The position numbers and the translations under genes are program-made. The notes below the pieces were generated by a model. That model was given only the letters and a program-made list of their open reading frames with translations, did not search any database and was not told the DNA's origin. From a virus (taxonomy: Duplodnaviria; Heunggongvirae; Uroviricota; Caudoviricetes), in IMG/VR virus record IMGVR_UViG_2695420651_000027: a DNA stretch of 26,146 nt; one strand, 5' to 3'. This document shows, in pieces, positions 205-16,565 of this stretch; the first letter of the stretch is position 1, and each line of letters opens with the position of its first letter.

Positions 205-806
205 TGAATAAAGCTGTATTAAATAGCGAACTCATTGCCATAAAAGCGGGAGATATTACCGTTTATAATTATGATGGTGAAACGCGGGAATATATTTCTA
301 CATCAACTGAATATCTCGCTGTCGGCGTCGGTATCCCGGCATGTTCCTGTCTGGATGCACCAGGTACACATAAAGCTGGTTATGCAATCTGTCGCTCTGT
401 AGATTTAAATTCATGGGAATATGTGCCAGACCATCGCGGTGAAGTTGTCTATAGTACCGAAACGGGAGATACCAAAGAAATCACAGTTCCGGGTGATTAC
501 CCTGAAAATACAACCACTATCGCCCCATTAACGCCATACGATAAATGGGATGGTGAGAAATGGGTGACGGATACCGAGGCACAGCATAGCGCCGCACTAG
601 ACGCGGCAGAAGTAAAGCGCCAGTCGCTGATTGATGCTGCAATGGCTTCCATCAGTCTGATTCAACTGAAATTACAGGCCGGGCGGAAGCTGACGCAGCC
701 AGAAAACACCCGACTTAACGCTGTGCTGGATTATATTGACGCGGTGACGGCAACAGATACCAGCACAGCGCCGGACGTCATCTGGCCTGAACTGCCGGAG
801 GCGTAG
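201..806 (+). CDS. tfa: Tail fibre assembly chaperone (Tfa, lambda Tfa / Mu U family), cassette A
   Basis: 201-aa ORF; conserved Tfa C-terminal motif VTATDTSTAPDVIWPELP; ATG overlaps preceding fibre stop (ATGA). Confidence 0.85.
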   Translation: MMNKAVLNSELIAIKAGDITVYNYDGETREYISTSTEYLAVGVGIPACSCLDAPGTHKAGYAICRSVDLNSWEYVPDHRGEVVYSTETGDTKEITVPGDYPENTTTIAPLTPYDKWDGEKWVTDTEAQHSAALDAAEVKRQSLIDAAMASISLIQLKLQAGRKLTQPENTRLNAVLDYIDAVTATDTSTAPDVIWPELPEA

Positions 807-1218
807 GCCATTCAATATCTGGCGCACCGGAAGTATCGACCAGTTCCAGTGCGTCCAGATAATCCAGCCACAAATTATATTGCACCAGTTCCTCTCCTTT
901 CAGGCGACCAATCGCCGCTTTACCAGGCCATTGCTTACTGTTTATGTATTCGTTGACCTGATTAATCAATTGCTGCTTTTTCAGTTCGGCTGCGGCAATT
1001 TGTTCCTCATGAGTTGGCGGTGGAATATCAATCCATGCAGGCATTCCGTCGATGACACCTCTGTATTTTCCTTCTGGTGCTTCCTTCATAAATTCGGCAG
1101 CAACAGTGTCGTCAATTTCGATTCCATCATCGGGCCATTCGCCGGATTCCTGATAAGCGATTTTAAGCTCCACAGGGAAAAACGCATTTTTATCGGCACT
1201 GAAAATATATTTCTGCAT
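778..1218 (-). CDS. tfa: Tail fibre assembly chaperone (Tfa family), cassette B, convergent with cassette A
   Basis: 146-aa ORF ending LVDTSGAPDIEWPTPP (Tfa C-terminal motif); 3' ends of the two tfa genes overlap by 29 nt on opposite strands. Confidence 0.85.
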   Translation of the reverse strand: MQKYIFSADKNAFFPVELKIAYQESGEWPDDGIEIDDTVAAEFMKEAPEGKYRGVIDGMPAWIDIPPPTHEEQIAAAELKKQQLINQVNEYINSKQWPGKAAIGRLKGEELVQYNLWLDYLDALELVDTSGAPDIEWPTPPAVQAR

Positions 1219-1220
1219 TT

Positions 1221-1579
1221 CTACCGTCCTATCGAAATATAACTGAATCTGTATTGCTGTGAGATATCACTGGTTGCCACACGCCACGCTGAATTACTGA
1301 TATGTTCAAAATTTACAGACAAAACCTGCGGGGCAGGAATCGACGGGTCTGACTGAACGGCATCAGACATAACACTGACTGAAACCATCGGCTGATTAGG
1401 GAATGGTATAGGGAAGTGTCCACTGATAAAGCGGGTCGTGTTTCCTGCAAAAGTGCCAAACTGAACAATATATCCACCTGGTAGCCTGAACCATCCCGAA
1501 CCAGAAGCGAATGCTCCCATATCCGGTATCTGATTATCTCCTGTGCCCACATCCCTTTTCGCCGCTTCTCCCAAACCAA
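1221..1579 (-). CDS. Alternative tail fibre C-terminal variable exon, cassette B (promoterless; expressed only when fused to H constant region at the crossover site); runs into N gap
   Basis: Open frame from the crossover half-site (encoding LG-E...) to a stop just upstream of tfaB; no ATG, begins at recombination site. Confidence 0.6.
1566..1579. other. Recombination crossover half-site TTCTCCCAAACCAA (hix/gix-like), truncated by N gap
   Basis: Identical 14-mer occurs at 2122-2135 and 16540-16553 where the full 26-bp quasi-palindromic site is visible. Confidence 0.7.
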
Positions 1580-1590
1580 NNNNNNNNNNN
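1580..1590. other. Assembly gap (11 N)
   Basis: Run of N placed exactly between crossover half-site and start of the inverted-repeat copy. Confidence 0.95.
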
Positions 1591-1830
1591 TGGCAATGAG
1601 TTCGCTATTTAATACAGCTTTATTCATCATGCGGCCCTCACAATATAATTAAAAGCGATGTTACGAGGACGAGTTTCTGTACCTACATTTTCACTAATTT
1701 CACCATAACGTTTAACACTACGAGAGCTAATAGCTCGTAGTGAGGAAGGCACCTTAAGACCGGGTTCGTCCGTTTTAACTATTCCCCCGTCACCGTATGT
1801 AGCCAGTATTCCTGGGTTTACTCCTTCCCG
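1591..1830. repeat. Inverted repeat copy (reverse complement of 1-240); covers end of fibre variable exon A and first 40 nt of tfaA
   Basis: Direct comparison: 1-20 is the reverse complement of 1811-1830, and 221-240 of 1591-1610. Confidence 0.9.
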
Positions 1831-3183
1831 TGCACTTCCTGCGGCGAGTCCGTCCCCTGTCCATAATTCCATATAGTGTGCATGGTCCAAAATTGTGTGT
1901 GGCTGCCAATTAAGCAAAGCGCGACCAGTATCAATCCCGCGACTGTCATCCCAGCCACGAATAAATTCACCGCGTAAATCAGGCAATTTATTGGTCGGGT
2001 AAGCCTTTGCCAGTTCCGGGTATTCTTCAGCAGAAAAAGCCGCACCGTTGCATTTCAGCCAGCCTGTTGGCGGAGTGGCGGAAGGCCACGGAACAGGCAC
2101 ACCAACGGGTAATGCCGAACCTTCTCCCAAACCAAGGTATGCGAGAAGACCAGCGACATCCTTTCCACTCAAATTAGTCAGCGTATTGTCCAGCGGTTGT
2201 TTACCTGCCAGCGCATTAAGCATTGTCGTGGCAAAGTTCGGATCATTCCCCAACGCCGACGCCAGTTCGTTCAGTGTATCCAGTGCCGCAGGTGCAGAAC
2301 CTACCATTGCTGCAATCGCCGATTTCACAAAAGCCGTGGTGGCAATCTGTGTATTGTTGACCGACTGTGCAGCAGTGGGGGCTGTTGGCGTTCCGGTGAG
2401 TGCCGGACTCGACAACGGCGCTTTCAGTGCCAGCGCATTGTTAATGGTGGTACTGAAATTCGGATCATTGTTAATGGCTGCGGCTATTTCTTTCAGCGTG
2501 TCCAGCGTGGCTGGCGCACCATTAATAAGAGCCGTCAGTGCCGCCTGAACAAACGCGGTGGTCGCAACCTGCGTGGTGTTATTCCCTGCCGCTGGAGTTG
2601 GCGCTTTTGGTGTCCCGGTAAACGTCGGACTTTCTTTGGGTGCATACTGTGAATGCGGGTCCGGTGCGGCAAGATGTTTTGCCATCTGATCATCCACGTA
2701 CACCTTCAGCTCCAGTACCTTGTCATCCACATACTTGCGGGTTGCCAGCACTACGGCAGGGTCGATTTTCAGGGTGATATTGTCCGTGCTGCTGGTAATC
2801 AGCACCATGCGCACGGTCTGGGTACGCCCGCTGCCTTCAGCCAGTTGCGGCTTATAGCTTTCCGGGCAGTTGCCCACGGCAATCAATGCCCCGGACTCAT
2901 CAAACAGGCCCACTTCACGTATCCACCAACCGCCCTCGTTTTCAGGGATCACCTGTTCAGCAATAATCTGGCTGCTGTTCTGCGGGTCGATATAGAGCAT
3001 ATTCAGCGCAGCCCGGCGTTTCTCATTTACCAATGCTGTCTGCTTGGCGTCCGGCGTTGGCAATGTTCCGCCGCCATCGCCCACCGCCATATGGGTAATT
3101 TTTAGCGGCACACCGAGCGCGGCGGCGCTGGCAAGTTTCGCCGCGCCAATATCCGTCAGCAGGGTATAAAATTTTGTGCTCAT
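1627..3183 (-). CDS. H: Tail fibre protein (P2 gpH-like): constant N-terminal region fused to variable C-terminus A
   Basis: 518-aa ORF; N-terminus MSTKFYTLLTDIG... is P2 H-like; internal approx 68-aa tandem repeat; crossover site embedded at 2122-2147. Confidence 0.85.
   Translation of the reverse strand: MSTKFYTLLTDIGAAKLASAAALGVPLKITHMAVGDGGGTLPTPDAKQTALVNEKRRAALNMLYIDPQNSSQIIAEQVIPENEGGWWIREVGLFDESGALIAVGNCPESYKPQLAEGSGRTQTVRMVLITSSTDNITLKIDPAVVLATRKYVDDKVLELKVYVDDQMAKHLAAPDPHSQYAPKESPTFTGTPKAPTPAAGNNTTQVATTAFVQAALTALINGAPATLDTLKEIAAAINNDPNFSTTINNALALKAPLSSPALTGTPTAPTAAQSVNNTQIATTAFVKSAIAAMVGSAPAALDTLNELASALGNDPNFATTMLNALAGKQPLDNTLTNLSGKDVAGLLAYLGLGEGSALPVGVPVPWPSATPPTGWLKCNGAAFSAEEYPELAKAYPTNKLPDLRGEFIRGWDDSRGIDTGRALLNWQPHTILDHAHYMELWTGDGLAAGSAREGVNPGILATYGDGGIVKTDEPGLKVPSSLRAISSRSVKRYGEISENVGTETRPRNIAFNYIVRAA
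2122..2147. other. 26-bp invertase crossover site inside H (TTCTCCCAAACC AA GGTATGCGAGAA)
   Basis: Imperfect 12-bp inverted half-sites around a central AA; matches the Hin/Gin family consensus as recalled (TTnTCnnAAACC AA GGTTTnnGAnAA). Confidence 0.7.
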
Positions 3184-3785
3184 GGATTCACTCTCATTGT
3201 GTCAATAACATGGACCGCCCCGCCTTCATGCGCGGTGCCGCCGGAAATAATTGTTTCGTTGATATACGGATAGATCGTGATTTCTTCGCCAAGATAGCTG
3301 GCGGCCCCCACCCAATGCGGACCGCTGGTCTGCAGATTGATGGACATGCCGATCATGTGACGGCTACATGGTTTGGCATCGCTTATCAGCCGCTCAAGTT
3401 CCAGATAGGTATCTTCAGTGATGCCCTGGTCCTGCACGCCGATATCCAGGCGAAACGTGCCCGGTGTTTCTCCGGTCTGCCACCACTCAATAATGCGGAT
3501 CAGGAATCCGAACGGTTCCACCACCCGCCGCACGGCACTGGTAGTTCCTTTATGCTGATGAATATAAAAAGCATCCTTCACTACCTGGCGTTTGACGCTT
3601 TCTGTCCAGCCCTCGTCCCAGCGATCCACAGAGAACGCCCAGGCGAGATAAGGCAGGAAGCTGACCGGACAGGTAGCCGGATTCCACAAGTCACGCAGCG
3701 GCACCTGCAGATCAGAAATCCCGCTACAGGTTTGCGCCAGTCGGCGCTCCAGTGAAGTTGAACCCGGTGGCAGCAGACTATTCAT
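3180..3785 (-). CDS. I: Baseplate/tail-fibre attachment protein (P2 gpI-like)
   Basis: 201-aa ORF in conserved position between J and H; overlaps H start. Confidence 0.8.
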   Translation of the reverse strand: MNSLLPPGSTSLERRLAQTCSGISDLQVPLRDLWNPATCPVSFLPYLAWAFSVDRWDEGWTESVKRQVVKDAFYIHQHKGTTSAVRRVVEPFGFLIRIIEWWQTGETPGTFRLDIGVQDQGITEDTYLELERLISDAKPCSRHMIGMSINLQTSGPHWVGAASYLGEEITIYPYINETIISGGTAHEGGAVHVIDTMRVNP

Positions 3786-4686
3786 CCGTTCCTCCGTTGG
3801 TTACGCTCCACTGCGTACATGATGCCGCCTGTGTTTTGTTCAGGACCACATCCGCCAGCGGAGAAGCCAGTTCCACACGTTGAACACCCTCAACATGCAG
3901 AGCAGCAAAGATGGCGCTACGGCGAATATCCCGACCAAGCCTCGTCTGGCTGGCAATGTACTTCTGCAGACTGGCTTTTGCCGCTGCCATTACCGGCTCT
4001 GCTTCCGGTCCCGGATAGAGAAAAATGGTGGCTTCCACGCGATACGGGATGATTTCTGCGCTGCGAACCGTAAGACGGTCAGCCACCGGGCGGACGTTCT
4101 CACTGTTCAGAGCTTTTTCCACCACGTCCAGCAGGTCTTTTTCTGCAGTTCCATCGCCTTCGCGGCTAAGGACAGTCAGCACCACCTCTGCAGGTGCCGG
4201 GCTGGTTGCACTGGCATCCGCCACCCGACCGTCGGCGCTTCGGGCATGAAATTCATAAGCTGCAGTTGGCCCCGCAACTGAAAGCCCTTCAAAGGCTGCA
4301 GGCACACGCAGGCGTAACGCTTCATCGCTTTCCATCACAGCTGCAACGGGCGGCACATCGTCATTATCAGCAGGCGTCACCGTCAGGCGTTTCACGTTGT
4401 AGTTGGCGGCGAGCTGGTCCAGATCGCCCCCTATGGCATAAGCCACCATCACCGCCTGCGCGGCTTCGTTAATGCGCTGGCGCAGAAGCAACTCACGGTA
4501 AGCATTCTCCTGCAACAATTTGGTGACGGGTTCAGATTCCAGTTCCAGCGTGCGGATCACTGCTTCCTGCTCATCTTTCGGATGAAGCGCCACAAATTCT
4601 GCCTTGCGTTCGGCAAGCAGCGTCTCAAAGTCCGGCACATCCACAATCTGCGGCGCAGGCAACTGCGAAAGGTCAATCACTGCCAT
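3778..4686 (-). CDS. J: Baseplate assembly protein J
   Basis: Start moved to internal Met MAVIDLSQLPAP (aligns with P2 gpJ N-terminus as recalled); AGGAG RBS upstream; longer ORF start at 4725 would overlap W. Confidence 0.8.
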   Translation of the reverse strand: MAVIDLSQLPAPQIVDVPDFETLLAERKAEFVALHPKDEQEAVIRTLELESEPVTKLLQENAYRELLLRQRINEAAQAVMVAYAIGGDLDQLAANYNVKRLTVTPADNDDVPPVAAVMESDEALRLRVPAAFEGLSVAGPTAAYEFHARSADGRVADASATSPAPAEVVLTVLSREGDGTAEKDLLDVVEKALNSENVRPVADRLTVRSAEIIPYRVEATIFLYPGPEAEPVMAAAKASLQKYIASQTRLGRDIRRSAIFAALHVEGVQRVELASPLADVVLNKTQAASCTQWSVTNGGTDE

Positions 4687-5032
4687 TCTCTGCTCCTGTT
4701 GATACGGAAAGGGAAACAGGCACACCGTTATTACGCCGCCCGGTCAGCTCCACCACCATTGAACCGTCAAAATTGCTGTTAATGGTGATGGAATCCAGCG
4801 TCAGCCGTGGCTCCCAGCGACTCAGCGCCACATACACTGCCGACATGACCTGCAGGCGTAATGCCGGATTTTGTGGCTGGTCTATCAGTGCCGACAGCAG
4901 GGAACCATATTCCCGACGGGCAATGCGGCTACCCTGCGGCGTCAGCAAAATGTCCCGCACCGACTGGCGCAGATGATCAATATCAGTAATGGCTTTACCG
5001 CTGGTATTGTTCATCCCGCTATAAAGCGTCAT
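4673..5032 (-). CDS. W: Baseplate protein W (gp25/GPW family)
   Basis: 119-aa ORF; similar in pattern to P2 gpW; overlaps V stop. Confidence 0.8.
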   Translation of the reverse strand: MTLYSGMNNTSGKAITDIDHLRQSVRDILLTPQGSRIARREYGSLLSALIDQPQNPALRLQVMSAVYVALSRWEPRLTLDSITINSNFDGSMVVELTGRRNNGVPVSLSVSTGAENGSD

Positions 5033-5607
5033 ACCGGGCCTCCGGTTGTGTCGCCGCCTTTCAGGACGTCAGTATGCTGATGCGCATCAACCACGATCCC
5101 GTTAGAACTCATCGCTCCGCCGCCCTGGGTAACGCCACCATTGATCACCACTTCGCTGTTAATGCGCGTGCGGTCAGCCTCCAGTACAAACTCACTGGTT
5201 TTCATGGTGATGTTGTCAGCGGCCTCAATGACCATTGATTTGATGCCCCTGACATACCAGCGCCCGGTAGTGGGTTCGTATTCAAACCAGCCGCCGTCAG
5301 GATGTTCTGTCACGCAGGCGTCTGCCGACGTCGACGGTGGTGCGAACTGATTCGAATAGACAGCGGGCAGCGCAAAGGCAGTTTCCAGATTGCCGCCCAG
5401 ACTCAGCAGCACCACCTGCTCACCTTCCGATGGTCGCCACCATGTGCGGGCATTCCCGGCACGCAGCGTCAGCCAGCTGATCCAGTTGGTTTCAAGCTCG
5501 CCCGTTTTCACCCGGCAAAGCCAGTTTTCCCGGTCCACTTCGGTGACTACACCAGTGCGGATCAGGTTGGTGATAAGGCGCATGATTTCGGTTAGTTGTG
5601 CGTTCAT
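5029..5607 (-). CDS. V: Baseplate spike/assembly protein V
   Basis: Start at internal Met MNAQLTEIMRLITNLIRTG, aligning with recalled P2 gpV N-terminus; upstream 36 codons of the long ORF are likely untranslated. Confidence 0.75.
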   Translation of the reverse strand: MNAQLTEIMRLITNLIRTGVVTEVDRENWLCRVKTGELETNWISWLTLRAGNARTWWRPSEGEQVVLLSLGGNLETAFALPAVYSNQFAPPSTSADACVTEHPDGGWFEYEPTTGRWYVRGIKSMVIEAADNITMKTSEFVLEADRTRINSEVVINGGVTQGGGAMSSNGIVVDAHQHTDVLKGGDTTGGPV

Positions 5608-5653
5608 AGGGTTAGGTTGCACGGACCTTGAATCTATGGCATCAATACGTCCT

Positions 5654-5671
5654 TGTGTGGTAAATGACACA
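5654..5671. promoter_or_regulatory. Candidate Ogr-dependent late promoter element (TGT-N12-ACA dyad) in the V / cargo intergenic region
   Basis: TGT at 5654-5656, 12-nt spacer, ACA at 5669-5671; same dyad type recurs upstream of O and FI. Confidence 0.45.
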
Positions 5672-5702
5672 AATACAATTCCAATCAAAGAAAGGTAAAA
5701 GA

Positions 5703-6233
5703 ATGAGCCATCCAATTGATTATTACGCTATAGAAGAACACGCAAGAATAATTGAGCAATTATGCTGTTCATCTGAATTTTATTTACAGCGTATATATTC
5801 CACACAGAAAGTATATGATGGTTCTATAGTAACTGAATTTGAAATGGAGGAGTTATCGTACAACGGATGGTTGGAATATACCATTAGCAACAATCTTATT
5901 AGCCTTTGTACAAAACTACGAATTCTCCAAGACACTAGTGAACATGAGTGGAACCCAGATTACTCACCTGAGAAAGAAGCATTTGAAGAACATGAAAATA
6001 TACTTTTTGTTATAGATGGTCATGTTAAAGATTCTATACGCGAATGCTGCAATAAAATTATTCACGCATTAAGTTTTGAGTTAACAAAAAAGACCGGCAA
6101 AAATGGAATAAAATATTGGGACGGTTCTATTATTGCTTCTGGGGTTCAAAACAAAAAAAACTGGAAAATTAAAATAGACCTTTTCCCTTTTTGCCAAAGC
6201 ATAAAAAGTTATTTAAGTTTATTAAGAGCGTAA
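5703..6233 (+). CDS. Hypothetical protein; low-GC cargo (moron) gene at the P2 orf30 position between S and V, opposite strand
   Basis: 176-aa ORF from Met with AAAGG RBS 8 nt upstream; composition visibly AT-rich versus flanking structural genes; no family recognised. Confidence 0.6.
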   Translation: MSHPIDYYAIEEHARIIEQLCCSSEFYLQRIYSTQKVYDGSIVTEFEMEELSYNGWLEYTISNNLISLCTKLRILQDTSEHEWNPDYSPEKEAFEEHENILFVIDGHVKDSIRECCNKIIHALSFELTKKTGKNGIKYWDGSIIASGVQNKKNWKIKIDLFPFCQSIKSYLSLLRA

Positions 6234-6238
6234 ACATT

Positions 6239-6691
6239 CTAATTTTTCATCAATAAATACTTTAAAAGTAAATCTCTTACTTCATTTTCAGTATGTTCAT
6301 TTAAACCCAGCAATTTTCGGGATGGATACTTAATGACTCCCCCCTTTGGACTGACGCGATCGCGCAGACCGTAGTGATGAACACGGGCAATACGCTGTAC
6401 CTTACCTTCAAACTGTACGCTGGCAGAATCCGCGCTGGCGGCAGTTCTCAGGTATTTTGTGGTGCGCAGCTTTGCAAACATCTGACGTTTGATGCGCCCC
6501 TTCTTGCTGCGTGCTGTTACCCTGCGCGGCTCATAACTGCTGCCATCTGGATTGCGCTGCATCCTGATATTCTGCTGCTGTGTCCGGCGCAGTTCCTGCG
6601 CCAGCTGGCGCATCATTCGGCTTCTTGCGGCTGGTTCCAGATTCGCCAGCAAAGCACTCAGCCAGTCGTCCACCTTCTGCAGTTCAGCCAC
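6239..6691 (-). CDS. S: Tail completion protein S
   Basis: 150-aa ORF in conserved R-S order; P2 gpS-like. Confidence 0.75.
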   Translation of the reverse strand: MAELQKVDDWLSALLANLEPAARSRMMRQLAQELRRTQQQNIRMQRNPDGSSYEPRRVTARSKKGRIKRQMFAKLRTTKYLRTAASADSASVQFEGKVQRIARVHHYGLRDRVSPKGGVIKYPSRKLLGLNEHTENEVRDLLLKYLLMKN

Positions 6692-7136
6692 GTTTCACCG
6701 TCCACATTTCTTCAGGTTCATCGGGTTCCGCTACTGCTTCAACGCTCGACACACTTCCGTCAGTGCTGACCAGCACACGTTCCGTCAGTTGCAGGTTGAG
6801 GCTGATATCACAGACATCGTTGCGCAGAATATCCACCTCAAAGGTGAATAACTTTTCCCGTAACGCCGGATTATTGATGGCATCGGGCTGGTTATCACGC
6901 AGCCACAGCAAAACCGGGGCCATCAGCAGATTCTGGTCGCCGCTGAAATCCTCAATCACCACGTTGAGGGTATAACGGTACTCCCATGACATGGAGCTGG
7001 CCCCCGTGGCAACCAGCGAACCGTTATCCACAAACAGATGCAGCTTATCCGGGTTATTGCGGACATAAGGCACTGCTTTATTGAGGGCGTGGCGCAGGGA
7101 TTGTGGTTTGTTCACTGTTTCGCTCCTGACACGCAA
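6684..7136 (-). CDS. R: Tail completion protein R
   Basis: 150-aa ORF; KPQSLRHAL...FVDNGS...RYTLNV pattern matches recalled P2 gpR. Confidence 0.75.
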   Translation of the reverse strand: MRVRSETVNKPQSLRHALNKAVPYVRNNPDKLHLFVDNGSLVATGASSMSWEYRYTLNVVIEDFSGDQNLLMAPVLLWLRDNQPDAINNPALREKLFTFEVDILRNDVCDISLNLQLTERVLVSTDGSVSSVEAVAEPDEPEEMWTVKRG

Positions 7137-7368
7137 TAATCATGTCCACTTTGTCTGCACAGACCGCCCAGGCGGCCTCCGTTTCATCCAGCAATGCGTT
7201 CAGATCACCGTTAGTGCGCGGCGCTGCCTGCTCCAGCCGACACGGCGTCACTCGCGGACAACCACTGACGGTAAGCTGCACCTCCGGTGAGTGCCGGACG
7301 TTCCCGCAGCCGGATAATGTCAGCAGGCAAAGGAGTATCAGCCCAGCGGCGTAAATCCTCGTTCTCAC
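7078..7368 (-). CDS. lysC: Outer-membrane spanin lipoprotein (LysC/Rz1-like), overlapping the 3' end of lysB in another frame
   Basis: Signal peptide plus lipobox LTLSGC; starts inside lysB; Pro-rich mature region. Confidence 0.6.
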   Translation of the reverse strand: MRTRIYAAGLILLCLLTLSGCGNVRHSPEVQLTVSGCPRVTPCRLEQAAPRTNGDLNALLDETEAAWAVCADKVDMIIACQERNSEQTTIPAPRPQ

Positions 7369-7639
7369 GTTTCAGTTCCTCGATCCGGTGTTGTCGTTGT
7401 CTCAGCAGCGCGCTGGTCTGTTCTGCTTCGGCATAGAGCCGCGCCTGCTCCCGGTTATTGGTTTCAGCCAGAATGGACAGACTGATCAGCTGGCTATTTT
7501 TCTTCGTTAGTTCGTGCGCTTTACTTTTCAGCGCCGCGCGCTGCGTTTCGATGGTGTGGCTGGCGCTGTTAAGCCGCCACGACTGCCAGCCCAGCGCAAC
7601 GAGTGCCAGCGCCGCCACTACCGCCAGCGCACGCGTCAT
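7211..7639 (-). CDS. lysB: Inner-membrane spanin (LysB/Rz-like)
   Basis: N-terminal TM segment, coiled-coil-like charged region; ATGA overlap with endolysin stop. Confidence 0.7.
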   Translation of the reverse strand: MTRALAVVAALALVALGWQSWRLNSASHTIETQRAALKSKAHELTKKNSQLISLSILAETNNREQARLYAEAEQTSALLRQRQHRIEELKRENEDLRRWADTPLPADIIRLRERPALTGGAAYRQWLSASDAVSAGAGSAAH

Positions 7640-8151
7640 AATCCAGCTCCTTTAAGGCACCAGGCCATCTCCCGCGCACGGCGGTTATCCAGCCCCTGAT
7701 TAAACACACCTTTCACATAAACCCAGCGCGGCAACTGTCGGCACGCTTCTGCCCAGCGCCGCTGATTGAGCAATTTCACCAGCGTAGAACTGCAGGCATT
7801 GCCCGTTCCCACGTTGAAGGCAAACGACACCGTAGCGTCATATACCTTCTGCGGCGGCTGTTGCTTCACACACCTTTCCAGCGCCCGCTCCACACGCAGC
7901 ACGTTGGAAATAAGCCCTTCTGCTGCCTGTCGTTCCGTGATTGTTTTGCCGGGAATGACGCCCGACGTATTTCCAATGCCGTCGGTCCAGACACCCGCGC
8001 TGCACTGATACGGCTGCAGACGACAACCTTCGTAATCGGCAATCAGTTTCAGCCCCTCCACGGAGGTGTGAAGCTGCTGAAACCCCGGCAGCGTGGCAGC
8101 AATAGCCAGCACGGCCCCGACAAGGCAGCGTTTAACGATTGATGGATTCAT
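7636..8151 (-). CDS. Endolysin, lysozyme family with E-x8-C-x5-T catalytic triad and N-terminal SAR-like hydrophobic segment
   Basis: YEGCRLQPYQCSAGVWTDGIG motif; N-terminal CLVGAVLAIAATLP hydrophobic stretch resembles SAR endolysins (phage 21 R / P1 Lyz type). Confidence 0.75.
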   Translation of the reverse strand: MNPSIVKRCLVGAVLAIAATLPGFQQLHTSVEGLKLIADYEGCRLQPYQCSAGVWTDGIGNTSGVIPGKTITERQAAEGLISNVLRVERALERCVKQQPPQKVYDATVSFAFNVGTGNACSSTLVKLLNQRRWAEACRQLPRWVYVKGVFNQGLDNRRAREMAWCLKGAGL

Positions 8152-8347
8152 AGTCCTCCCGCGAAATCTGCCCGTCGCGCAGAAGCTGGTAGGCTTTGTG
8201 TTTGTAGTACCAGTTGATAGCCAGCATCAGCACACCAATCATCAGGCCGCCCAGCGTTGAGGCATCCTTGATGGACAAATCGCCCAGCCAGGCCAGCACG
8301 ACGGCGATGCAATACGTGATAAAGGCGCTGATTCGCTCAAGCGTCAT
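8132..8347 (-). CDS. Putative holin (small two-TMD membrane protein, pinholin-like)
   Basis: 71 aa, two hydrophobic helices, charged C-terminus; immediately upstream of the endolysin. Confidence 0.6.
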   Translation of the reverse strand: MTLERISAFITYCIAVVLAWLGDLSIKDASTLGGLMIGVLMLAINWYYKHKAYQLLRDGQISREDYESINR

Positions 8348-8350
8348 AAT

Positions 8351-8554
8351 TCAGTCCCATAGCTGGACGGTCTGCACGGTGGTGGTTGTCGGAATGTCCG
8401 GCAGCTCCACCTGCAGCCCGTGAGGTAAAAAGGGGCCGTATTCGGCAAGCCCCGGATTTGCCTTCAGTACCTGCTCCGTGACACCCTGCGTGCGCCCGTA
8501 ATGACGCCAGCAAAGTGCGTCCACCGTGTCATACTGATGCGCACGCACTTTCAT
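8351..8554 (-). CDS. X: Tail protein X
   Basis: 67-aa ORF closely matching recalled P2 gpX (YGRT.GV.E.VL.ANPGLAE...LPHG..VELPD). Confidence 0.8.
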   Translation of the reverse strand: MKVRAHQYDTVDALCWRHYGRTQGVTEQVLKANPGLAEYGPFLPHGLQVELPDIPTTTTVQTVQLWD

Positions 8555-9018
8555 CAGATAAGCTCCACTGTGCAGTGCGGCGCATCCTGCACCCGGCTGA
8601 TGGCCCAGCGGGCGTCACGCCATAAATCACCGCTTGCTTCCGCCAGTTCCTCGCCTCGCTTCGCACCGGATGCCGTGGCGTCATAGTCCTGGTAACGTTC
8701 GTTGAGCATGGCGCGTGCCCAGCAGTAAACCGCGTTGAAATAGTGCTGAATGCGCTCGCTTTTGCCGTCCAGTTGTTCCGCCGGGACTTCTGCCAGCGAG
8801 GCATACCCCAGCATCTGCTGGCGTCTGCGAAACTCATACAGCTCTGCGTTGACCTCCGAAATTGCCGACAGCGCAACCTGCTTTAAACGCGGCTGCGTCA
8901 CCGTGCCGTCAGTGCGCATGACACTGCGAAACTCCGACAGGTCCACATCAGGCCAGAACGGCGTATTTCTGATGATTTCCGCCTGTTCCGGTGCCTGTTC
9001 TGGCGCAACAAACTTCAT
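8554..9018 (-). CDS. L: Head completion/stabilisation protein L
   Basis: Start set at Met MKFVAPEQ preceded by GGAGAA RBS; P2 gpL-like. Confidence 0.75.
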   Translation of the reverse strand: MKFVAPEQAPEQAEIIRNTPFWPDVDLSEFRSVMRTDGTVTQPRLKQVALSAISEVNAELYEFRRRQQMLGYASLAEVPAEQLDGKSERIQHYFNAVYCWARAMLNERYQDYDATASGAKRGEELAEASGDLWRDARWAISRVQDAPHCTVELI

Positions 9019-9113
9019 GCTGCTTTCTCCTGAAATAAAGGGCGGTGGACGGGGTTTTGATGTGGCAGTGCCTTTCGCCACCCCGTGCCGCCCGTGCGCG
9101 GGGGCACGTTCTG

Positions 9114-9764
9114 TCAGCGGCTGTCATTGCGCAGTCTGCGCTCCAGCTGCTGTTTGTCTTTTTTCACGCCACAGCGGGGATCGAGCTGTAACGCATGGTT
9201 GAGATGATTAAGGGCGGAAGCCGGATTACTTTCACTCAGGACAGCGCCAATCGCTTTATGCAGACGCGCCCGTGACTGGTCCGGCATATCCAGACCGTCT
9301 GTCAGCTCCAGCGTCTGCAGCAGCAGATCGACATCAAAGCCGGTAGTGGCAAGCATTGCGCTCTGCGCTGCGTCTGCCATTTCCTCTGCCAGCACGGTCT
9401 GCACGTTGCGGTTACCTAGCGGCATCACCCAGCCATGACGCAGGGCATGACGCCCGATCTCCAGCGCTCCGACATAATCTCCGGCATCAATGCGCCACAG
9501 CATCACGTACATCAGCACGTCATCCTGTTGAGCGCCTCCGGCAGCCAGGACACCCTCCGCCCAGGCGGCGTATTTCGGCAGCAGCTCCACCTTGATTTCC
9601 GCTTTTTTGACCGTGGACTGAACGCCCTTGAGACGGCGGCGGTCTTCTGCCAGTTGCAGCAGCATCAGGTCATAGCCCGACGCGTGGCGAACGCTGCCGC
9701 CCTCGCGGGCGGCCTGTTCAGCCTGAACGCGCAGGCGATGCTGCCGTGCGGGACTCAGGCTCAT
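9114..9764 (-). CDS. M: Terminase small (endonuclease) subunit M
   Basis: 216-aa ORF in conserved N-M-L order. Confidence 0.75.
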   Translation of the reverse strand: MSLSPARQHRLRVQAEQAAREGGSVRHASGYDLMLLQLAEDRRRLKGVQSTVKKAEIKVELLPKYAAWAEGVLAAGGAQQDDVLMYVMLWRIDAGDYVGALEIGRHALRHGWVMPLGNRNVQTVLAEEMADAAQSAMLATTGFDVDLLLQTLELTDGLDMPDQSRARLHKAIGAVLSESNPASALNHLNHALQLDPRCGVKKDKQQLERRLRNDSR

Positions 9765-9767
9765 GGT

Positions 9768-10826
9768 TTACGCTCCGGTTTCTGCTGCGGCGGCGCTGAA
9801 GTCGCCAATCTGGATGTTTTCCACCAGTGCGGCGCAGCGGTAGTCCTCAACCACATAGGCTTCGTTAACGGATTCAAAATTTTCAATCCGGTCACGTTTC
9901 GGGTTGTCGATAACCGAACGGCGGCGGGTGTCTTCCTGCCAGTAAATGGACAGGTTATCCAGACGGGTGATCAGCAGCGCATTCGGCGGGAAGAACGGCG
10001 CACGCACGGCCTGCAGGCCACCCATGCGTTTCTGACTGATGATCATATCGGCAGCCAGTTTTTCACTGTTTTCCTGCTCTTTGTTGACCAGCGGGAAATA
10101 CTTGTCAGACAGCAGCTCACGACCGCAAATCACCACCAGATCGTCATCGTCCTGGTAGACCACGTCGATAAGCTCATTGACCGCATCCATCACCACGGCG
10201 TCCAGGTTGGCATATTCGCCACCTTTCCCGACTTTCACCGCACCCGGTGTGGTTTCACCGCCCGTGGTGGTGCTGCCCATGACGTGATCCGGTGCATCCT
10301 CACGGATTTTCTGCAGCCAGCCTTTGTTCACATCCTGCAGCAGCGGGTTTTCGCTACGGTTGGAGGTTTTCGCACGCTTCACGCCGTTAAAGCCGATCAT
10401 GATGCGGTCCAGTGCCTGGCGTTTCACGATGGCGTCACGGATACGCACCTGGAAATCCTGAAACTTCGCCCACAGGTCCAGCTTCGCGTAGGTCAGCACC
10501 GTGTCAAAGTTGGTCTGTTCGCATTTGTATTCCACATCGATCATCAGCGTCGGATCGACAGGTTCACGCTCTTTCGCGGTGGTGTCAGTGGTTCCGGCAA
10601 TGGTGCTGCCAACACCCAATCCAAGCAGCTGACCGGACTGCTCAGTCACTGGCGTGACGTTAATCAGCGTCAGGAAAGCGGCGGACTGCTGGATCTGGTC
10701 TTCCAGCGTCTGCTGCACAGACGGCTCTACGGTGAACTTGCTGGACAGTTCCTCAACTGCCACACCGTTCAGACGCGCCAGTTGCTGCAGGTAAGCGTTA
10801 AAAGCAAAACGGGTATTCTTCTTCAT
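9768..10826 (-). CDS. N: Major capsid protein N
   Basis: 352-aa ORF; P2 gpN-like. Confidence 0.85.
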   Translation of the reverse strand: MKKNTRFAFNAYLQQLARLNGVAVEELSSKFTVEPSVQQTLEDQIQQSAAFLTLINVTPVTEQSGQLLGLGVGSTIAGTTDTTAKEREPVDPTLMIDVEYKCEQTNFDTVLTYAKLDLWAKFQDFQVRIRDAIVKRQALDRIMIGFNGVKRAKTSNRSENPLLQDVNKGWLQKIREDAPDHVMGSTTTGGETTPGAVKVGKGGEYANLDAVVMDAVNELIDVVYQDDDDLVVICGRELLSDKYFPLVNKEQENSEKLAADMIISQKRMGGLQAVRAPFFPPNALLITRLDNLSIYWQEDTRRRSVIDNPKRDRIENFESVNEAYVVEDYRCAALVENIQIGDFSAAAAETGA

Positions 10827-10842
10827 TGGGTTTTATGCTCCA

Positions 10843-11676
10843 TCAGCAATTGGTCAGAGTGTCAGCGGGGGCGTTGCCGCCTGTTGCACGCTGGCGGTAG
10901 TCCTGGCGGCTGTCTTCATGACTCAGCTTATCCACCAGTTCGTTAAAGGCGGTTTGCTGCTCCTGCAGAGCAGTCTCCAGCTCAGACAGGCGTTCTTCCT
11001 GCTCAGACAGGGATTTTTCGGTGCGCGTGCTCAGGTTCTGCTGCTCAGTGGCGACCAGTTCCACGGCCTTATGCACATCAGAGAACCGGACGTCATCGGA
11101 CTGCTCTTTTTTGGTAAACAGCGCCGTGACGCGGGCAAACAGGGACGGCTTGTCCTCCTGGATTTCTTCCAGTTCGATCACCGTTTCCTCTGCAGCGGTA
11201 AAAAGATTGGCAGGATTCTGCTTGCGGTTTGCCAGCGGGTTATGGGCTGCACTGGCGCTGAATGTCAGCATTTCCGTACCCAGACTGGCGGGATCATCAG
11301 TGGCAGCCAGGCCGACCAGGTAGGCTTTGCCCGTATCAGCAAACTTCGGGCTGACTTCCATAGAGGTGAATAATTTCTGGCCTTTTTTCACCAGTTCCAC
11401 CAGGGACTCCGTTGGCTCAACGTCGGCATACAGTGCCATCTTGCCTGCCAGCGGACCTTCCGCGATTTCTTCAGCAAACAGCGCCGTCACCTTGCCGTAG
11501 CGGTTAAACGTGCTGTCCGGCAGATAAGACTTAATGTGCTCAAGGTTAATCAGCGCGGTATACACCGCCGGGTTGTAGCTGGCTGCCATCTGTTCCAGCC
11601 ATTCACGCTGGATTTCGCGTCCGTCGGTAGTGGCACCTTCCACCCCGATGCGAAAACGCTTTGCTTTCACTGTCAT
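10843..11676 (-). CDS. O: Capsid scaffolding protein O
   Basis: 277-aa ORF; FRIGVEG..DGR..INLEH motifs as in P2 gpO; C-terminal ...TNC. Confidence 0.85.
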   Translation of the reverse strand: MTVKAKRFRIGVEGATTDGREIQREWLEQMAASYNPAVYTALINLEHIKSYLPDSTFNRYGKVTALFAEEIAEGPLAGKMALYADVEPTESLVELVKKGQKLFTSMEVSPKFADTGKAYLVGLAATDDPASLGTEMLTFSASAAHNPLANRKQNPANLFTAAEETVIELEEIQEDKPSLFARVTALFTKKEQSDDVRFSDVHKAVELVATEQQNLSTRTEKSLSEQEERLSELETALQEQQTAFNELVDKLSHEDSRQDYRQRATGGNAPADTLTNC

Positions 11677-11754
11677 GAGCCGTGCTCCGTTAGAAAAAAC
11701 TTACTGGAGCCTTATGGTTGCGGTGATGGGGGCAGTGAAACAATGCGCGGTATT

Positions 11755-11772
11755 TGTACCGACAACCACACA
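11755..11772. promoter_or_regulatory. Candidate Ogr-dependent late promoter element (TGT-N12-ACA) in the divergent P / O intergenic region
   Basis: TGT 11755-11757, 12-nt spacer, ACA 11770-11772, in the 142-bp gap between divergent O and P starts. Confidence 0.5.
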
Positions 11773-11818
11773 AACCGCAGGCGGGGAAAGCCTTCATTCA
11801 AGGCTGTAGGTTTGTGCC

Positions 11819-13585
11819 ATGAACACCACACTGACACCCGCAGATCTCGATCCCCGTCGGCAGGCCATGCTGCTGTACTTTCAGGGATACCGCGTAGCCC
11901 GCATTGCTGAAATGCTGGGCGAGAAAGTTGCAACCGTTCACAGCTGGAAAAAACGCGACAAGTGGGGTGACTATGGGCCGCTGGATCAGATGCAGCTCAC
12001 CACCGCCGCCCGCTACTGCCAGCTCATTATGAAGGAGCACAAAGAAGGGAAAGATTTCAAAGAAATTGACCTGCTGGCGCGCCAGTCGGAGCGCCACGCG
12101 CGGATCGGCAAGTTTAACAATGGCGGCAACGAAGCCGACTTAAACCCTAACGTCGCCAACCGCAACAAAGGGCCGCGCCGTCAGCCGGAAAAGAATGTTT
12201 TCACCGATGAACAGATTGAGAAGCTGGAAGAAATCTTCCATTCCTCCATGTTCAACTACCAGCGCCACTGGTGGGAAGCCGGAAAAACCAATCGCATCCG
12301 CAACCTGCTGAAGTCTCGCCAGATCGGCGCGACCTTTTACTTTGCCCGTGAAGCCCTGATTGACGCCCTGCTGACCGGACGTAACCAGATTTTCCTTTCC
12401 GCCAGTAAGGCACAGGCCCACGTCTTTAAGCAGTACATCATCGACTTCGCCAAAGAAGTCGAGGTGGAGCTGAAAGGCGATCCGATGGTGCTTCCTAACG
12501 GGGCCACGCTTTACTTCCTCGGCACCAATGCCCGCACGGCCCAGAGTTACCACGGCAACCTGTATCTGGATGAATATTTCTGGATACCGAAATTCCAGGA
12601 GCTGCGCAAAGTGGCTTCCGGTATGGCTATTCACAAAAAATGGCGACAAACCTATTTTTCCACGCCATCCAGCCTGACACACAGTGCTTATCCGTTCTGG
12701 TCCGGTGCGCTGTTCAACCGAGGGCGCAACAAAGCCGATAAGGTGGACATCGACCTGTCCCACAGCAATCTGGCCCCCGGCCTGCTGTGCGCAGACGGGC
12801 AGTACCGCCAGATAGTCACCGTGGAAGATGCGGTGCGCGGCGGCTGTAACCTGTTCGACCTTGACCAGTTGCGCATGGAGTACAGCCCGGACGAATACCA
12901 GAACCTGCTGATGTGCGAGTTCGTGGACGATCTCGCGTCCGTGTTCCCGCTCAGCGAGCTGCAGGCGTGCATGGTGGACAGTTGGGAAGTCTGGACCGAC
13001 TTTCATGCACTGGCCCTGCGCCCGTTTGGCTGGCGCGAAGTGTGGATCGGATATGACCCGGCGAAAGGTACGCAGAACGGCGACAGCGCCGGATGCGTGG
13101 TGGTGGCGCCGCCAGCCGTGCCGGGCGGTAAGTTCCGCATTCTTGAGCGTCACCAGTGGCGCGGAATGGACTTCCGCGCCCAGGCTGACGCCATCAAAAA
13201 ACTGACCGAACAGTACAACGTGACCTATATCGGTATCGACTCAACCGGCGTTGGTCACGGGGTTTACGAGAACGTGAAAGCGTTTTTTCCTGCCGTCCGG
13301 GAGTTTGTCTACAACCCCAACGTTAAAAACGCCCTGGTACTCAAGGCCTACGACATTATCAGCCACCGCCGTCTGGAGTTTGACGCCGGACACACCGACA
13401 TAGCGCAGTCCTTTATGGCAATCCGTCGCGCCACCACCGCCAGTGGCAACCGCCCGACCTATGAAGCCAGCCGCAGCGAAGAAGCCAGCCACGCCGATCT
13501 GGCCTGGGCAACGATGCACGCACTGTTTAACGAACCGCTGCAGGGCGAATCCGCCAATACCAGCAATATTGTGGAGATTTTTTGA
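11819..13585 (+). CDS. P: Terminase large (ATPase) subunit P
   Basis: 588-aa ORF; N-terminus LTPADLDPRRQAMLLYFQGYRV resembles P2 gpP. Confidence 0.85.
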   Translation: MNTTLTPADLDPRRQAMLLYFQGYRVARIAEMLGEKVATVHSWKKRDKWGDYGPLDQMQLTTAARYCQLIMKEHKEGKDFKEIDLLARQSERHARIGKFNNGGNEADLNPNVANRNKGPRRQPEKNVFTDEQIEKLEEIFHSSMFNYQRHWWEAGKTNRIRNLLKSRQIGATFYFAREALIDALLTGRNQIFLSASKAQAHVFKQYIIDFAKEVEVELKGDPMVLPNGATLYFLGTNARTAQSYHGNLYLDEYFWIPKFQELRKVASGMAIHKKWRQTYFSTPSSLTHSAYPFWSGALFNRGRNKADKVDIDLSHSNLAPGLLCADGQYRQIVTVEDAVRGGCNLFDLDQLRMEYSPDEYQNLLMCEFVDDLASVFPLSELQACMVDSWEVWTDFHALALRPFGWREVWIGYDPAKGTQNGDSAGCVVVAPPAVPGGKFRILERHQWRGMDFRAQADAIKKLTEQYNVTYIGIDSTGVGHGVYENVKAFFPAVREFVYNPNVKNALVLKAYDIISHRRLEFDAGHTDIAQSFMAIRRATTASGNRPTYEASRSEEASHADLAWATMHALFNEPLQGESANTSNIVEIF

Positions 13586-14619: not shown

Positions 14620-14627
14620 TTCCGAAC

Positions 14628-15326: not shown

Positions 15327-15406
15327 GTCAATTACTCCTCCCTATGAAAAAAATGAGTTGAAAAATTGAATATTCACGACTTAAAAAGCTAGGTAATGAC
15401 TCCAAC

Positions 15407-16170: not shown

Positions 16171-16553
16171 CTTAAGACCGGGTTCGTCCGTTTTAACTAT
16201 TCCCCCGTCACCGTATGTAGCCAGTATTCCTGGGTTTACTCCTTCCCGTGCACTTCCTGCGGCGAGTCCGTCCCCTGTCCATAATTCCATATAGTGTGCA
16301 TGGTCCAAAATTGTGTGTGGCTGCCAATTAAGCAAAGCGCGACCAGTATCAATCCCGCGACTGTCATCCCAGCCACGAATAAATTCACCGCGTAAATCAG
16401 GCAATTTATTGGTCGGGTAAGCCTTTGCCAGTTCCGGGTATTCTTCAGCAGAAAAAGCCGCACCGTTGCATTTCAGCCAGCCTGTTGGCGGAGTGGCGGA
16501 AGGCCACGGAACAGGCACACCAACGGGTAATGCCGAACCTTCTCCCAAACCAA
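16171..16553. repeat. Direct repeat of 1753-2135: tail fibre variable exon A fragment joined to the invertase-proximal crossover site (silent cassette, or alternate-orientation junction)
   Basis: Identity checked over sampled segments at both ends of the two copies with a constant offset of 14418; identity ends exactly after TTCTCCCAAACCAA. Confidence 0.85.
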
Positions 16554-16565
16554 CGTTTATGAAAA
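16540..16565. other. 26-bp invertase crossover site adjacent to the invertase gene (TTCTCCCAAACC AA CGTTTATGAAAA)
   Basis: Quasi-palindromic half-sites around central AA; lies 55 bp upstream of the invertase start, as in gin/cin/hin systems. Confidence 0.7.

What the first reader, a model, noticed from the sequence alone, without database searches (positions are those of the whole stretch)
5703..6233. AT-rich moron between tail completion gene S and baseplate gene V, on the opposite strand
A 176-aa ORF of roughly one-third GC by eye interrupts the otherwise co-directional R-S-V-W-J-I-H block and is transcribed against it. This is the position of orf30 in P2, a known site of variable content. 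The protein shows no recognisable family and has scattered Cys and His residues. Composition and position indicate horizontally acquired cargo expressed from the lysogen.
Basis: partly seen in the sequence, partly recalled or inferred. Interest (0 to 1): 0.65.

Follow-up and report, generated by a model that had tools for sequence, protein, structure and literature searches.

The report
Prophage cargo gene, likely HEPN-like RNase
A real, horizontally acquired 176-residue gene sits in a known swap site of a P2-like E. coli prophage. It belongs to a large unnamed protein family that elsewhere travels as integron cassettes, and it probably encodes a HEPN-like RNase used for phage exclusion, although that function is untested.

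Summary
ORF 5703-6233 (+, 176 aa, GC 0.32 against about 0.57) lies between baseplate gene V and tail-completion gene S, on the opposite strand, in a Cartapus-like P2-family prophage.

It is a real gene. Orthologues occupy the same slot in Salmonella and Enterobacter prophages (dN/dS 0.09). Published LF82 RNA-seq shows low but autonomous transcription in the lysogen.

The slot is polymorphic. It is empty in most related E. coli prophages and holds other single genes in some (FRG/PDC-S15, TIR, DUF6216). The swapped block is about 5621-6345. It includes the V promoter region and the last ~35 codons of S.

The protein matches no Pfam, NCBIfam or PADLOC model. It nevertheless belongs to a family of at least 1,400 clusters. 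Outside enterobacteria these are single-gene integron cassettes bracketed by attC sites.

Best reading: a stand-alone HEPN-like RNase acting in abortive infection. The fold assignment and the function are inferred, not shown. This is an ordinary kind of feature, with moderately interesting content.

The parts
5703..6233 (+). Cargo gene, 176 aa, cytoplasmic, predicted helical bundle plus three-stranded sheet
   Evidence: ORF; annotated as a hypothetical protein in Cartapus and LF82; start fixed by the conserved MSHPI N-terminus; dN/dS 0.094; AlphaFold pLDDT 90.3
6039..6065 (+). Codons R113-E-C-C-N117-K118-I-I-H121, the family's signature motif and putative active site
   Evidence: R113 96%, N117 99%, K118 98%, H121 99% in 168 non-redundant members; lies in helix 112-120 with H121 at its end
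5621..6345 (.). Exchanged module: V-promoter region, cargo gene and a replacement 3' end of S
   Evidence: Alignment with an empty-slot prophage loses homology at about 5620 and regains it at about 6345
6239..6345 (-). AT-rich last ~35 codons of S that travel with the cargo
   Evidence: GC 0.305 against 0.569 for the rest of S. The same pattern holds in the Salmonella and Enterobacter orthologues and in the TIR and FRG cargo variants. Empty-slot S is 0.581
5654..5671 (.). TGT-N12-ACA, probable Ogr-type late-activator site of the V promoter
   Evidence: Pattern match. Its centre is 55.5 nt from the V ATG, the same geometry as annotated for P2 P_V. The count of this pattern across the window is not above chance; the position is the argument
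5674..5679 (+). Candidate -10 (TACAAT) of a weak cargo promoter. An AAGG Shine-Dalgarno follows at 5692-5695, 7 nt before the ATG
   Evidence: Read from the sequence. The consensus promoter scan found nothing on the + strand, so this is inference only
5029..5607 (-). Baseplate gene V (context)
   Evidence: PHROG baseplate hits; annotation
6239..6691 (-). Tail-completion gene S (context); its stop lies 5 nt from the cargo stop
   Evidence: PHROG 26; annotation

Best explanation
The gene is a self-contained, horizontally acquired cargo gene (moron). It sits in the S/V inter-operon slot of a P2-like prophage and is transcribed weakly from its own promoter against the late genes. Its product is a small cytoplasmic enzyme of an unnamed family that spreads as single-gene modules, mostly integron cassettes.

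The most likely activity is a HEPN-like, metal-independent RNase. Its active site would be formed by R113, N117, K118 and H121 at the end of one helix, facing R73 and D77 on the preceding long helix, with H3 from the N-terminus.

The most likely role is phage exclusion by abortive infection. The enzyme would be kept inactive in the lysogen and switched on by an infecting phage.

Shown: the gene is real, conserved, mobile, partner-less and transcribed.

Inferred: the HEPN fold assignment, the RNase chemistry and the defence role.
For: Gene reality and mobility.

Autonomy:
- In Aliivibrio, Vibrio and Pseudoalteromonas (L008-L010), attC-like sites bracket the gene alone, on both sides.
- In Pseudoalteromonas L011 and in Chloroflexia, Stenotrophomonas, Ectothiorhodospiraceae and Ornatilinea loci, an attC-like site ends 5-15 nt before the ATG.
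- No partner gene recurs in 14 non-prophage contexts.

Enzyme-like conservation: H3 85%, R73 99%, D77 91%, R113 96%, N117 99%, K118 98%, H121 99%.

Fold:
- The model has pLDDT 90.3.
- Rank 6 is 3jrt, which PMC3710099 calls the integron-associated HEPN domain.
- Also listed are 6nlt, 4ebj, 1wwp and 8xdj. That makes 7 HEPN-superfamily chains in the top 34.
- Topology fits the HEPN description: the motif sits at the end of a helix entering a loop, an insert lies between helices 2 and 3, and the preceding helix carries a conserved acidic residue.

Motif register:
- R113-x3-N117-x3-H121 equals K181-x3-N185-x3-H189 of the window's own DUF4145 protein.
- It also equals R146...H154 of RAZR, where both residues are needed for defence and RNA is cleaved (PMC13017515).

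Defence context:
- Alternative cargos of the same slot include FRG = PADLOC PDC-S15 (E 8.5e-32) and a TIR protein.
- Neighbours of family members include a Drt4 match (L008), a Drt1a/RT-nitrilase match that by its size I assign to the 1,274-aa ORF in L014, PDC-S08 and PDC-S35 matches, and a CAP12-type TIR gene.
- At least one third of unknown mobile-integron cassettes gave phage resistance (bioRxiv 10.1101/2024.07.02.601719).

Lysogenic transcription independent of the late genes.
Against: - No sequence method links the family to HEPN. hmmscan of 55 diverse members against Pfam, NCBIfam and PADLOC found nothing.
- hhalign against the DUF4145 alignment gave probability 0.1%.
- PDB profile searches were empty.
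- Foldseek against PDB and BFVD found nothing (best E about 0.1).
- The motif is R-x7-H, outside the canonical Rx4-6H. The canonical R position is C116.
- A 36-residue beta-meander between the motif and the last helix is not a described HEPN feature.
- I could not inspect coordinates, so clustering of the conserved residues is inferred from helical periodicity only.
- Expression in LB is at the floor.
- No phage-resistance phenotype is known, and most neighbours in cassette arrays are unrelated to defence.
Confidence: 0.4

Rival explanations
1. The product is an enzyme with a host-adaptive role unrelated to phages, for example nucleotide or small-molecule processing or stress adaptation, carried as a lysogenic-conversion gene.
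For: The family is mostly chromosomal integron cassettes, whose arrays hold many metabolic and stress genes such as glyoxalase, acetyltransferases and beta-lactamase. Transcript level rises in B1/B6 (read as DMEM) and in macrophages relative to LB. No defence model matches.
Against: The conserved R/N/K/H set on a helical bundle, with HEPN toxins as best structural matches, points to nucleic-acid chemistry. The prophage slot also carries defence-type cargo. No metabolic partner gene or operon recurs.
Confidence: 0.25
2. The product is a counter-defence or phage-fitness factor that benefits the P2-like phage during its own infection or induction.
For: It sits inside the late region next to the V late promoter, so an Ogr-dependent effect on its expression is conceivable.
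Against: It is transcribed against the late operons and is detectable in the uninduced lysogen. It is absent from most relatives. Among 50,697 phage records only Cartapus has it, and all 18 IMG/VR loci are the enterobacterial prophage clade. Most family members are bacterial integron cassettes. Anti-defence genes are reported as rare in P2-like phages (bioRxiv 10.64898/2026.02.27.708500).
Confidence: 0.1
3. The product is a selfish stabilising toxin or an orphan immunity or antitoxin protein, with no enzymatic defence role.
For: Cassette arrays and prophages are rich in toxin-antitoxin and immunity genes. The protein is small.
Against: No partner gene lies inside the cassette boundaries or in the prophage module. 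Immunity proteins rarely keep an invariant R/N/K/H constellation across phyla.
Confidence: 0.1
4. The ORF is spurious or decaying and has no function.
For: Expression is very low in LB. One of 22 E. coli copies is truncated. P0004 looks degraded.
Against: dN/dS is 0.094 at near-saturated dS. Full-length conservation runs across phyla. The confident fold has pLDDT 90.3. 21 of 22 copies are intact.
Confidence: 0.01

Closest known systems
P2 orf30 and the S/V variable slot of P2-like phages
   Same: Same position between the S gene (end of the O operon) and the V late promoter. Opposite strand, AT-rich, dispensable, single gene.
   Different: The protein is unrelated (hhalign probability 0.7%). 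By eye, orf30 and the DUF6216 cargo look like membrane proteins, whereas this one has no evident transmembrane segment (not tested with a predictor).
RAZR / PD-T7-4 (zinc-ribbon + DUF4145 HEPN RNase; PMC13017515)
   Different: No Pfam DUF4145 or PADLOC PD-T7-4 match. hhalign is negative. There is no zinc ribbon. A beta-meander follows the motif. The N-terminal His and the R73/D77 pair are conserved.
HepT / MNT-associated HEPN toxins (5YEP, 7AE2)
   Same: Top structural matches. N and H of RNxxxH align with N117 and H121.
   Different: The canonical Arg position is Cys116, with the Arg one helical turn upstream. There is no MNT antitoxin partner and no HxY.
Vpc_cass2 (PDB 3jrt), integron-associated HEPN domain
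   Different: 9% identity and no sequence-profile link.
Phage-defence integron cassettes (BRiCs; bioRxiv 10.1101/2024.07.02.601719)
   Same: Small stand-alone cassettes of unknown function that also occur outside integrons.
   Different: No evidence that this family was among those tested. Membership would need a phenotype.

Membership tests
Cargo (moron) of the P2 S/V (orf30) slot | Lies between S and V homologues | tested here: met
Cargo (moron) of the P2 S/V (orf30) slot | Presence/absence polymorphism among close relatives, so dispensable | tested here: met
   22 of about 1,039 E. coli genomes with a related V..S stretch hold it. An empty slot has a 68-bp spacer. At least 7 alternative cargos occur
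Cargo (moron) of the P2 S/V (orf30) slot | Deviant base composition | tested here: met
   GC 0.324 against 0.57
Cargo (moron) of the P2 S/V (orf30) slot | Transcribed in the lysogen independently of the late operons | tested here: inconclusive
   Published RNA-seq shows about 15-fold over V and S in the B1/B6 (read as DMEM) and macrophage samples, but floor level in LB and below that paper's moron cut-off. No transcription start is mapped, and the consensus scan found no promoter
HEPN superfamily RNase | Four-helix up-down bundle with an insert between helices 2 and 3 | tested here: inconclusive
HEPN superfamily RNase | Rx4-6H motif at the end of helix 3 | tested here: not met
   The spacing is R-x7-H (R113, H121). 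The location at a helix end is as described. The same x7 spacing is functional in RAZR
HEPN superfamily RNase | Conserved acidic residue in helix 2 (often Ex3[KR]) | tested here: inconclusive
   R73-x3-D77 is conserved on the preceding long helix, but in reversed order
HEPN superfamily RNase | Sequence-profile similarity to a HEPN family | tested here: not met
HEPN superfamily RNase | Dimer with a composite active site; metal-independent RNA cleavage | not testable with these tools
   Needs multimer modelling, a structure or biochemistry
DUF4145 / RAZR (PD-T7-4) | Match to Pfam PF13643 or PADLOC PD-T7-4 | tested here: not met
   The window's own DUF4145 protein does match both
DUF4145 / RAZR (PD-T7-4) | [R/K]-x3-N-x3-H catalytic motif | tested here: met
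DUF4145 / RAZR (PD-T7-4) | N-terminal Cys4 zinc ribbon | tested here: not met
   None in the sequence or the alignment
Integron gene cassette | attC site (RYYYAAC ... GTTRRRY hairpin) bounding a single ORF | tested here: not met
   The window copy has none; its stop is 5 nt from the S stop. Relatives in Aliivibrio, Vibrio and Pseudoalteromonas (L008-L010) are bracketed on both sides. Pseudoalteromonas L011 and the Chloroflexia, Stenotrophomonas and other loci have an attC-like site ending 5-15 nt before the ATG
Type II toxin-antitoxin pair | Adjacent co-transcribed partner gene | tested here: not met
   Cassette and module boundaries hold one gene

The most novel reading that the evidence does not exclude
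This is the first recognised member of a widespread (at least 1,400 clusters, bacteria and some archaea) family of stand-alone HEPN-like RNases with a DUF4145-type R-x3-N-x3-H site and a novel beta insert. On this reading it is a new single-gene abortive-infection system that shuttles between chromosomal integron cassette arrays and temperate-phage cargo slots.
Probability: 0.3. Interest if true: 0.65.

Novelty: new member of a known kind. Interest (0 to 1): 0.45.

Why it matters
Cargo slots of P2-like prophages and integron cassette arrays are both proven sources of new antiviral genes. Here one unnamed family links the two reservoirs. The same 180-residue module is a cassette in marine gammaproteobacteria and other phyla, and a prophage moron in E. 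coli, Salmonella and Enterobacter.

If the HEPN-like RNase and defence reading holds, it adds a compact single-gene system that is easy to test. It would also show that R-x7-H HEPN sites extend beyond DUF4145.

The result also defines the exchange unit of the little-studied S/V slot: promoter region, cargo gene and a private S tail.

If the defence reading fails, the finding remains an ordinary moron of unknown function.

Tried and rejected
- Pfam, NCBIfam and PADLOC scans of the protein and of 55 diverse relatives found no family.
- PDB sequence and profile searches found only chance hits.
- Foldseek against PDB and BFVD found nothing below E 0.1. AFDB50 was unavailable.
- hhalign of the family against the window's DUF4145 protein, a 117-sequence DUF4145 alignment and P2 orf30 was negative.
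- A hand-written DUF86 consensus retrieved only the motif segments of HepT from the PDB. These served for a register comparison, not for a profile.
- HNH, PD-(D/E)xK and zinc-binding readings of the CCNK..H stretch were considered. I rejected them because only C116 and H121 are conserved, the motif is helical, and no upstream His or Asp of those folds is conserved.
- A remnant attC in the window was sought and not found.
- The promoter and terminator scan found no consensus promoter on the + strand and no terminator between the convergent genes.
- A literature search by accession and locus tag found nothing. The supplement of the LF82 CRISPRi preprint has no entry for the gene.
- The profile of 55 sequences was too divergent for locus retrieval, so the closer alignment was used.

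Full report
**The observation**

The window carries an ORF on the + strand ending at 6233. The mechanical list gives 5664..6233 (189 aa). The ATG at 5703 yields the 176-aa protein annotated in phage Cartapus and in E. coli LF82. That is the start shared by every homologue, all of which begin MSHPI. The upstream ATG at 5664 lies inside a late-promoter element.

GC is 0.324 for the ORF. V is 0.573 and the bulk of S is 0.569. The neighbours are V, W, J and I on one side and S and R on the other, all on the minus strand.

The stretch 5500-6450 is 100% identical to Cartapus, a Peduoviridae prophage of strain LF82. Phage P2 has its non-essential orf30 in the same place and orientation. There it lies between the terminator of the O operon and the activator site of the V promoter.

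**It is a real gene**

- Orthologues at 74% and 60% identity sit in the same slot of Salmonella and Enterobacter P2-like prophages. The spacing is the same: 94-100 nt from the V start and 5 nt from the S stop.
- Between the E. coli and Salmonella copies dN is 0.15 and dS is 1.6, so dN/dS is 0.094.
- A profile search of 1.84 billion representatives found 464 clusters at E <= 1e-3. Nearly all of those listed are 170-210 aa.
- A second search found 1,404 clusters at 90% identity. Every one that carries a source name is called 'hypothetical' or 'uncharacterized', and none has a Pfam domain.
- AlphaFold2 on 15 sequences gives pLDDT 90.3 and pTM 0.86.
- 21 of the 22 E. coli copies are intact and one is truncated.

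**It is acquired cargo in a swap site**

- A related V..S stretch occurs in 1,039 of 5,426 complete E. coli genomes. Only 22 hold this gene.
- In an evenly spaced sample of the ranking, most loci span 1,092 bp instead of 1,661. That is an empty slot with a 68-bp V-S spacer.
- Other loci hold different single genes: a DUF6216 protein (also in BL21 and C41), an FRG-domain protein, a TIR-domain protein and four unrelated hypothetical proteins.
- All but the TIR gene are on the strand opposite to the late genes.
- The FRG protein matches the PADLOC candidate PDC-S15 at E = 8.5e-32. The TIR protein weakly matches PDC-S66 and SpbK.

Alignment with an empty slot places the boundaries of the exchanged block at about 5620 and 6345. 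The block therefore carries three things: the V promoter region, the cargo gene and a replacement for the last ~35 codons of S. That S tail is AT-rich (0.305) here, in the orthologues and in the TIR and FRG variants. It is not AT-rich in the empty slot.

I infer that cargo is exchanged by recombination within S and just upstream of V, and that this block came from a lower-GC P2-like lineage.

**Expression**

A TGT-N12-ACA element at 5654-5671 is centred 55.5 nt from the V ATG. This is the geometry annotated for P2's V promoter. The cargo ATG lies 31 nt beyond it.

A TACAAT at 5674-5679 and an AAGG at 5692-5695 are plausible weak signals. The consensus scan reports no + strand promoter and no terminator between the convergent genes.

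Published strand-resolved RNA-seq of LF82 lists the gene as LF82_787 (PMC9928086, S1 Table). Values are log2(fpkm+5):

| Condition | Replicates |
|---|---|
| Overnight LB | 3.51 / 2.71 |
| B1 | 5.06 / 5.16 |
| B6 | 5.89 / 5.97 |
| Macrophages, 1 h | 5.11 / 5.28 |
| Macrophages, 6 h | 4.57 / 4.38 |

The floor is 2.32. V and S stay at 2.3-3.3 and CI at 8.0-9.3. I read the B1 and B6 columns as DMEM at 1 h and 6 h. By my conversion the gene reaches about 55 fpkm. That is roughly 15-fold above its neighbours and one fifth of CI.

The authors did not list it as a moron because their cut-off used LB. Transcription independent of the late operons is thus real, but low and condition-dependent.

**The family outside prophages**

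In the species-representative genome set the pattern scan recovered six loci: Aliivibrio, Vibrio hepatarius, two Pseudoalteromonas, a Chloroflexia MAG and a Dokdonia MAG.

- The Aliivibrio locus has eleven copies of a ~127-nt repeat that begins TAACAA and ends GCGTTA, typical of Vibrio attC sites. Two of them bracket the gene alone.
- Vibrio hepatarius and Pseudoalteromonas L010 are bracketed on both sides in the same way.
- In Pseudoalteromonas L011 and in the Chloroflexia, Stenotrophomonas, Ectothiorhodospiraceae and Ornatilinea loci, an attC-like site ends 5-15 nt before the ATG. My detector is crude. In 360 random windows its 95th percentile arm score was about 2, against 7-10 for the best sites.
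- An Aeromonas caviae copy lies beside a CTX-like filamentous prophage.
- Another copy lies in an island with an AlpA gene.

No partner gene recurs.

In IMG/VR all 18 loci belong to the enterobacterial prophage clade. Among 50,697 phage records only Cartapus carries the gene. So this is mainly a bacterial cassette gene that one lineage of temperate phages has captured.

Among 81 neighbouring ORFs of the 14 non-prophage loci, PADLOC finds four defence-type families. Drt4 is in the Aliivibrio array. There are also matches to Drt1a/RT-nitrilase, PDC-S08 and PDC-S35. The output does not say which ORFs these last three hit. By its size I assign the Drt1a match to the 1,274-aa ORF of the Stenotrophomonas locus. 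A CAP12-type TIR gene lies 66 bp upstream in that same locus.

**What the protein looks like**

In 168 members below 70% mutual identity the near-invariant residues are:

| Residue | Conservation |
|---|---|
| H3 | 85% |
| R73 | 99% |
| D77 | 91% |
| R113 | 96% |
| E114 | 85% |
| C116 | 87% |
| N117 | 99% |
| K118 | 98% |
| H121 | 99% |
| A122 | 91% |
| W139 | 88% |
| G147 | 99% |
| W154 | 98% |

The model has helices at 7-21, 24-34, 45-78, 89-95, 112-120 and 160-175. Strands lie at 101-105, 124-131, 137-149 and 152-159.

R113, E114, N117, K118 and H121 share one helical face. S62, L65, I66, A69, R73 and D77 share a face of the long helix. I infer that these two faces meet to form a polar pocket. 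I could not inspect the coordinates.

- Further down: 6nlt_A, 4ebj_A, 1wwp_B and 8xdj_A.

Anantharaman et al. (PMC3710099) name 3jrt as the integron-associated HEPN domain and 1wwp as an MNT-linked HEPN. They place the aminoglycoside nucleotidyltransferase C-domains in the same superfamily. Seven of the top 34 hits are therefore HEPN-type.

The same paper places the catalytic motif at the end of helix 3 entering the loop. It puts a conserved acidic residue in helix 2 and an insert between helices 2 and 3. The model fits all three points.

The canonical motif is Rx4-6H. Here the spacing is R-x7-H. Set against HepT's RNIAVH, N117 and H121 are in register and Cys116 takes the Arg position.

The window itself encodes such a protein at 14628-15326. 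In 117 relatives of that protein, K181, N185 and H189 are invariant. The register [R/K]-x3-N-x3-H is thus shared.

**Limits of that assignment**

- No sequence method supports it.
- Foldseek finds nothing.
- The beta-meander after the motif has no described HEPN counterpart.

I therefore say that it probably works like a DUF4145-type HEPN RNase. I do not file it as a member of any named HEPN family.

**Function**

The evidence favours a self-sufficient enzyme that is tolerated at low expression and spreads on defence-rich mobile platforms:

- cassette arrays, where at least one third of unknown mobile-integron cassettes conferred phage resistance (bioRxiv 10.1101/2024.07.02.601719);
- P2-like cargo slots (PMC9122126; bioRxiv 10.64898/2026.02.27.708500).

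The most likely mechanism is abortive infection by an RNase that an incoming phage activates. This is how RAZR works and, from my own knowledge, how the lactococcal single-gene HEPN Abi proteins are thought to work.

I give the full statement 0.4. The alternatives are a non-defence adaptive enzyme (0.25), a phage-benefiting factor (0.1), a toxin or immunity protein (0.1) and a non-functional ORF (0.01).

**Novelty**

A moron at the orf30 position is expected for P2-like phages, and the sequence is already public as a hypothetical protein and as PHROG 18838. Three things are new here:

- the size and conservation of the family;
- its identity as an integron cassette elsewhere;
- the HEPN/DUF4145-like active-site register, together with the definition of the exchange unit of the slot.

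I found no paper that mentions the protein.

Noticed in passing
window 14628-15326 (-): A 232-aa protein with an N-terminal Cys4 zinc ribbon and a DUF4145 domain (Pfam E 4.5e-7). It matches PADLOC PD-T7-4 (RAZR) at E 1.2e-6. K181-x3-N185-x3-H189 is invariant in 117 relatives. It lies next to the portal gene in the classic old/tin hotspot. If, as the length and the RefSeq DUF4145 name suggest, it corresponds to LF82_788, its transcript there rises from about 4.7 (LB) to about 9.5 (macrophages) in log2(fpkm+5). The prophage would thus carry two HEPN-type cargo genes.
   Followed up: partly
window 782-15392 versus 16539-25131: The first stretch matches Cartapus on the minus strand (99.8%) and the second on the plus strand (99.9%). 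The two are collinear in the Cartapus record. The window therefore carries a ~15-kb inversion or rearrangement relative to Cartapus and LF82. One end lies next to the Gin-like invertase (16615-17187) and the tail-fibre segment, and the other lies beside the DUF4145 gene. It could be invertase-mediated or an assembly artefact.
   Followed up: partly
window 24481-24963 (-): A 160-aa ORF lies near ogr and the attachment end. It has the same length as LF82_783, a 'putative exonuclease' that is the most highly expressed Cartapus moron at 15-fold over background in LB (PMC9928086). It weakly matches PADLOC candidate PDC-S48 (E 1.7e-7).
   Followed up: partly
window 6153-6160: There is an A8 homopolymer inside the cargo gene. 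One of 22 E. coli copies (strain E47) has a 1-nt shorter match and a truncated 157-aa CDS. Cluster P0004 is a degraded 149-aa variant with the motif destroyed. This may be occasional inactivation or sequencing error. I did not check whether the missing base lies in the A8 run.
   Followed up: partly
L025, L026, L027-L031 (E. coli S/V slots): Each alternative cargo type comes with its own AT-rich version of the last ~35 codons of S. The S tail appears to be part of the swapped module. This could matter for S function or for recombination specificity.
   Followed up: partly
L008 1370-2947 (-) and L014 7146-7931, 10423-14292: A Drt4 reverse-transcriptase defence gene lies inside the Aliivibrio cassette array. 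In Stenotrophomonas the family gene sits 66 bp downstream of a CAP12-type TIR gene. A 1,274-aa ORF lies about 1.9 kb further downstream; by its size I take it to be the Drt1a/RT-nitrilase match.
   Followed up: partly
L016 8651-14009: The Aeromonas caviae family member lies directly beside a CTX-like filamentous prophage (Zot, RstB, Rep_trans) and a tyrosine integrase. This is a third type of mobile carrier for the family.
   Followed up: no
window 11755-11772 and 11813-11830: Two more TGT-N12-ACA elements lie in the divergent region between the capsid-scaffold gene and the terminase gene. This is where P2-type late promoters are expected.
   Followed up: no
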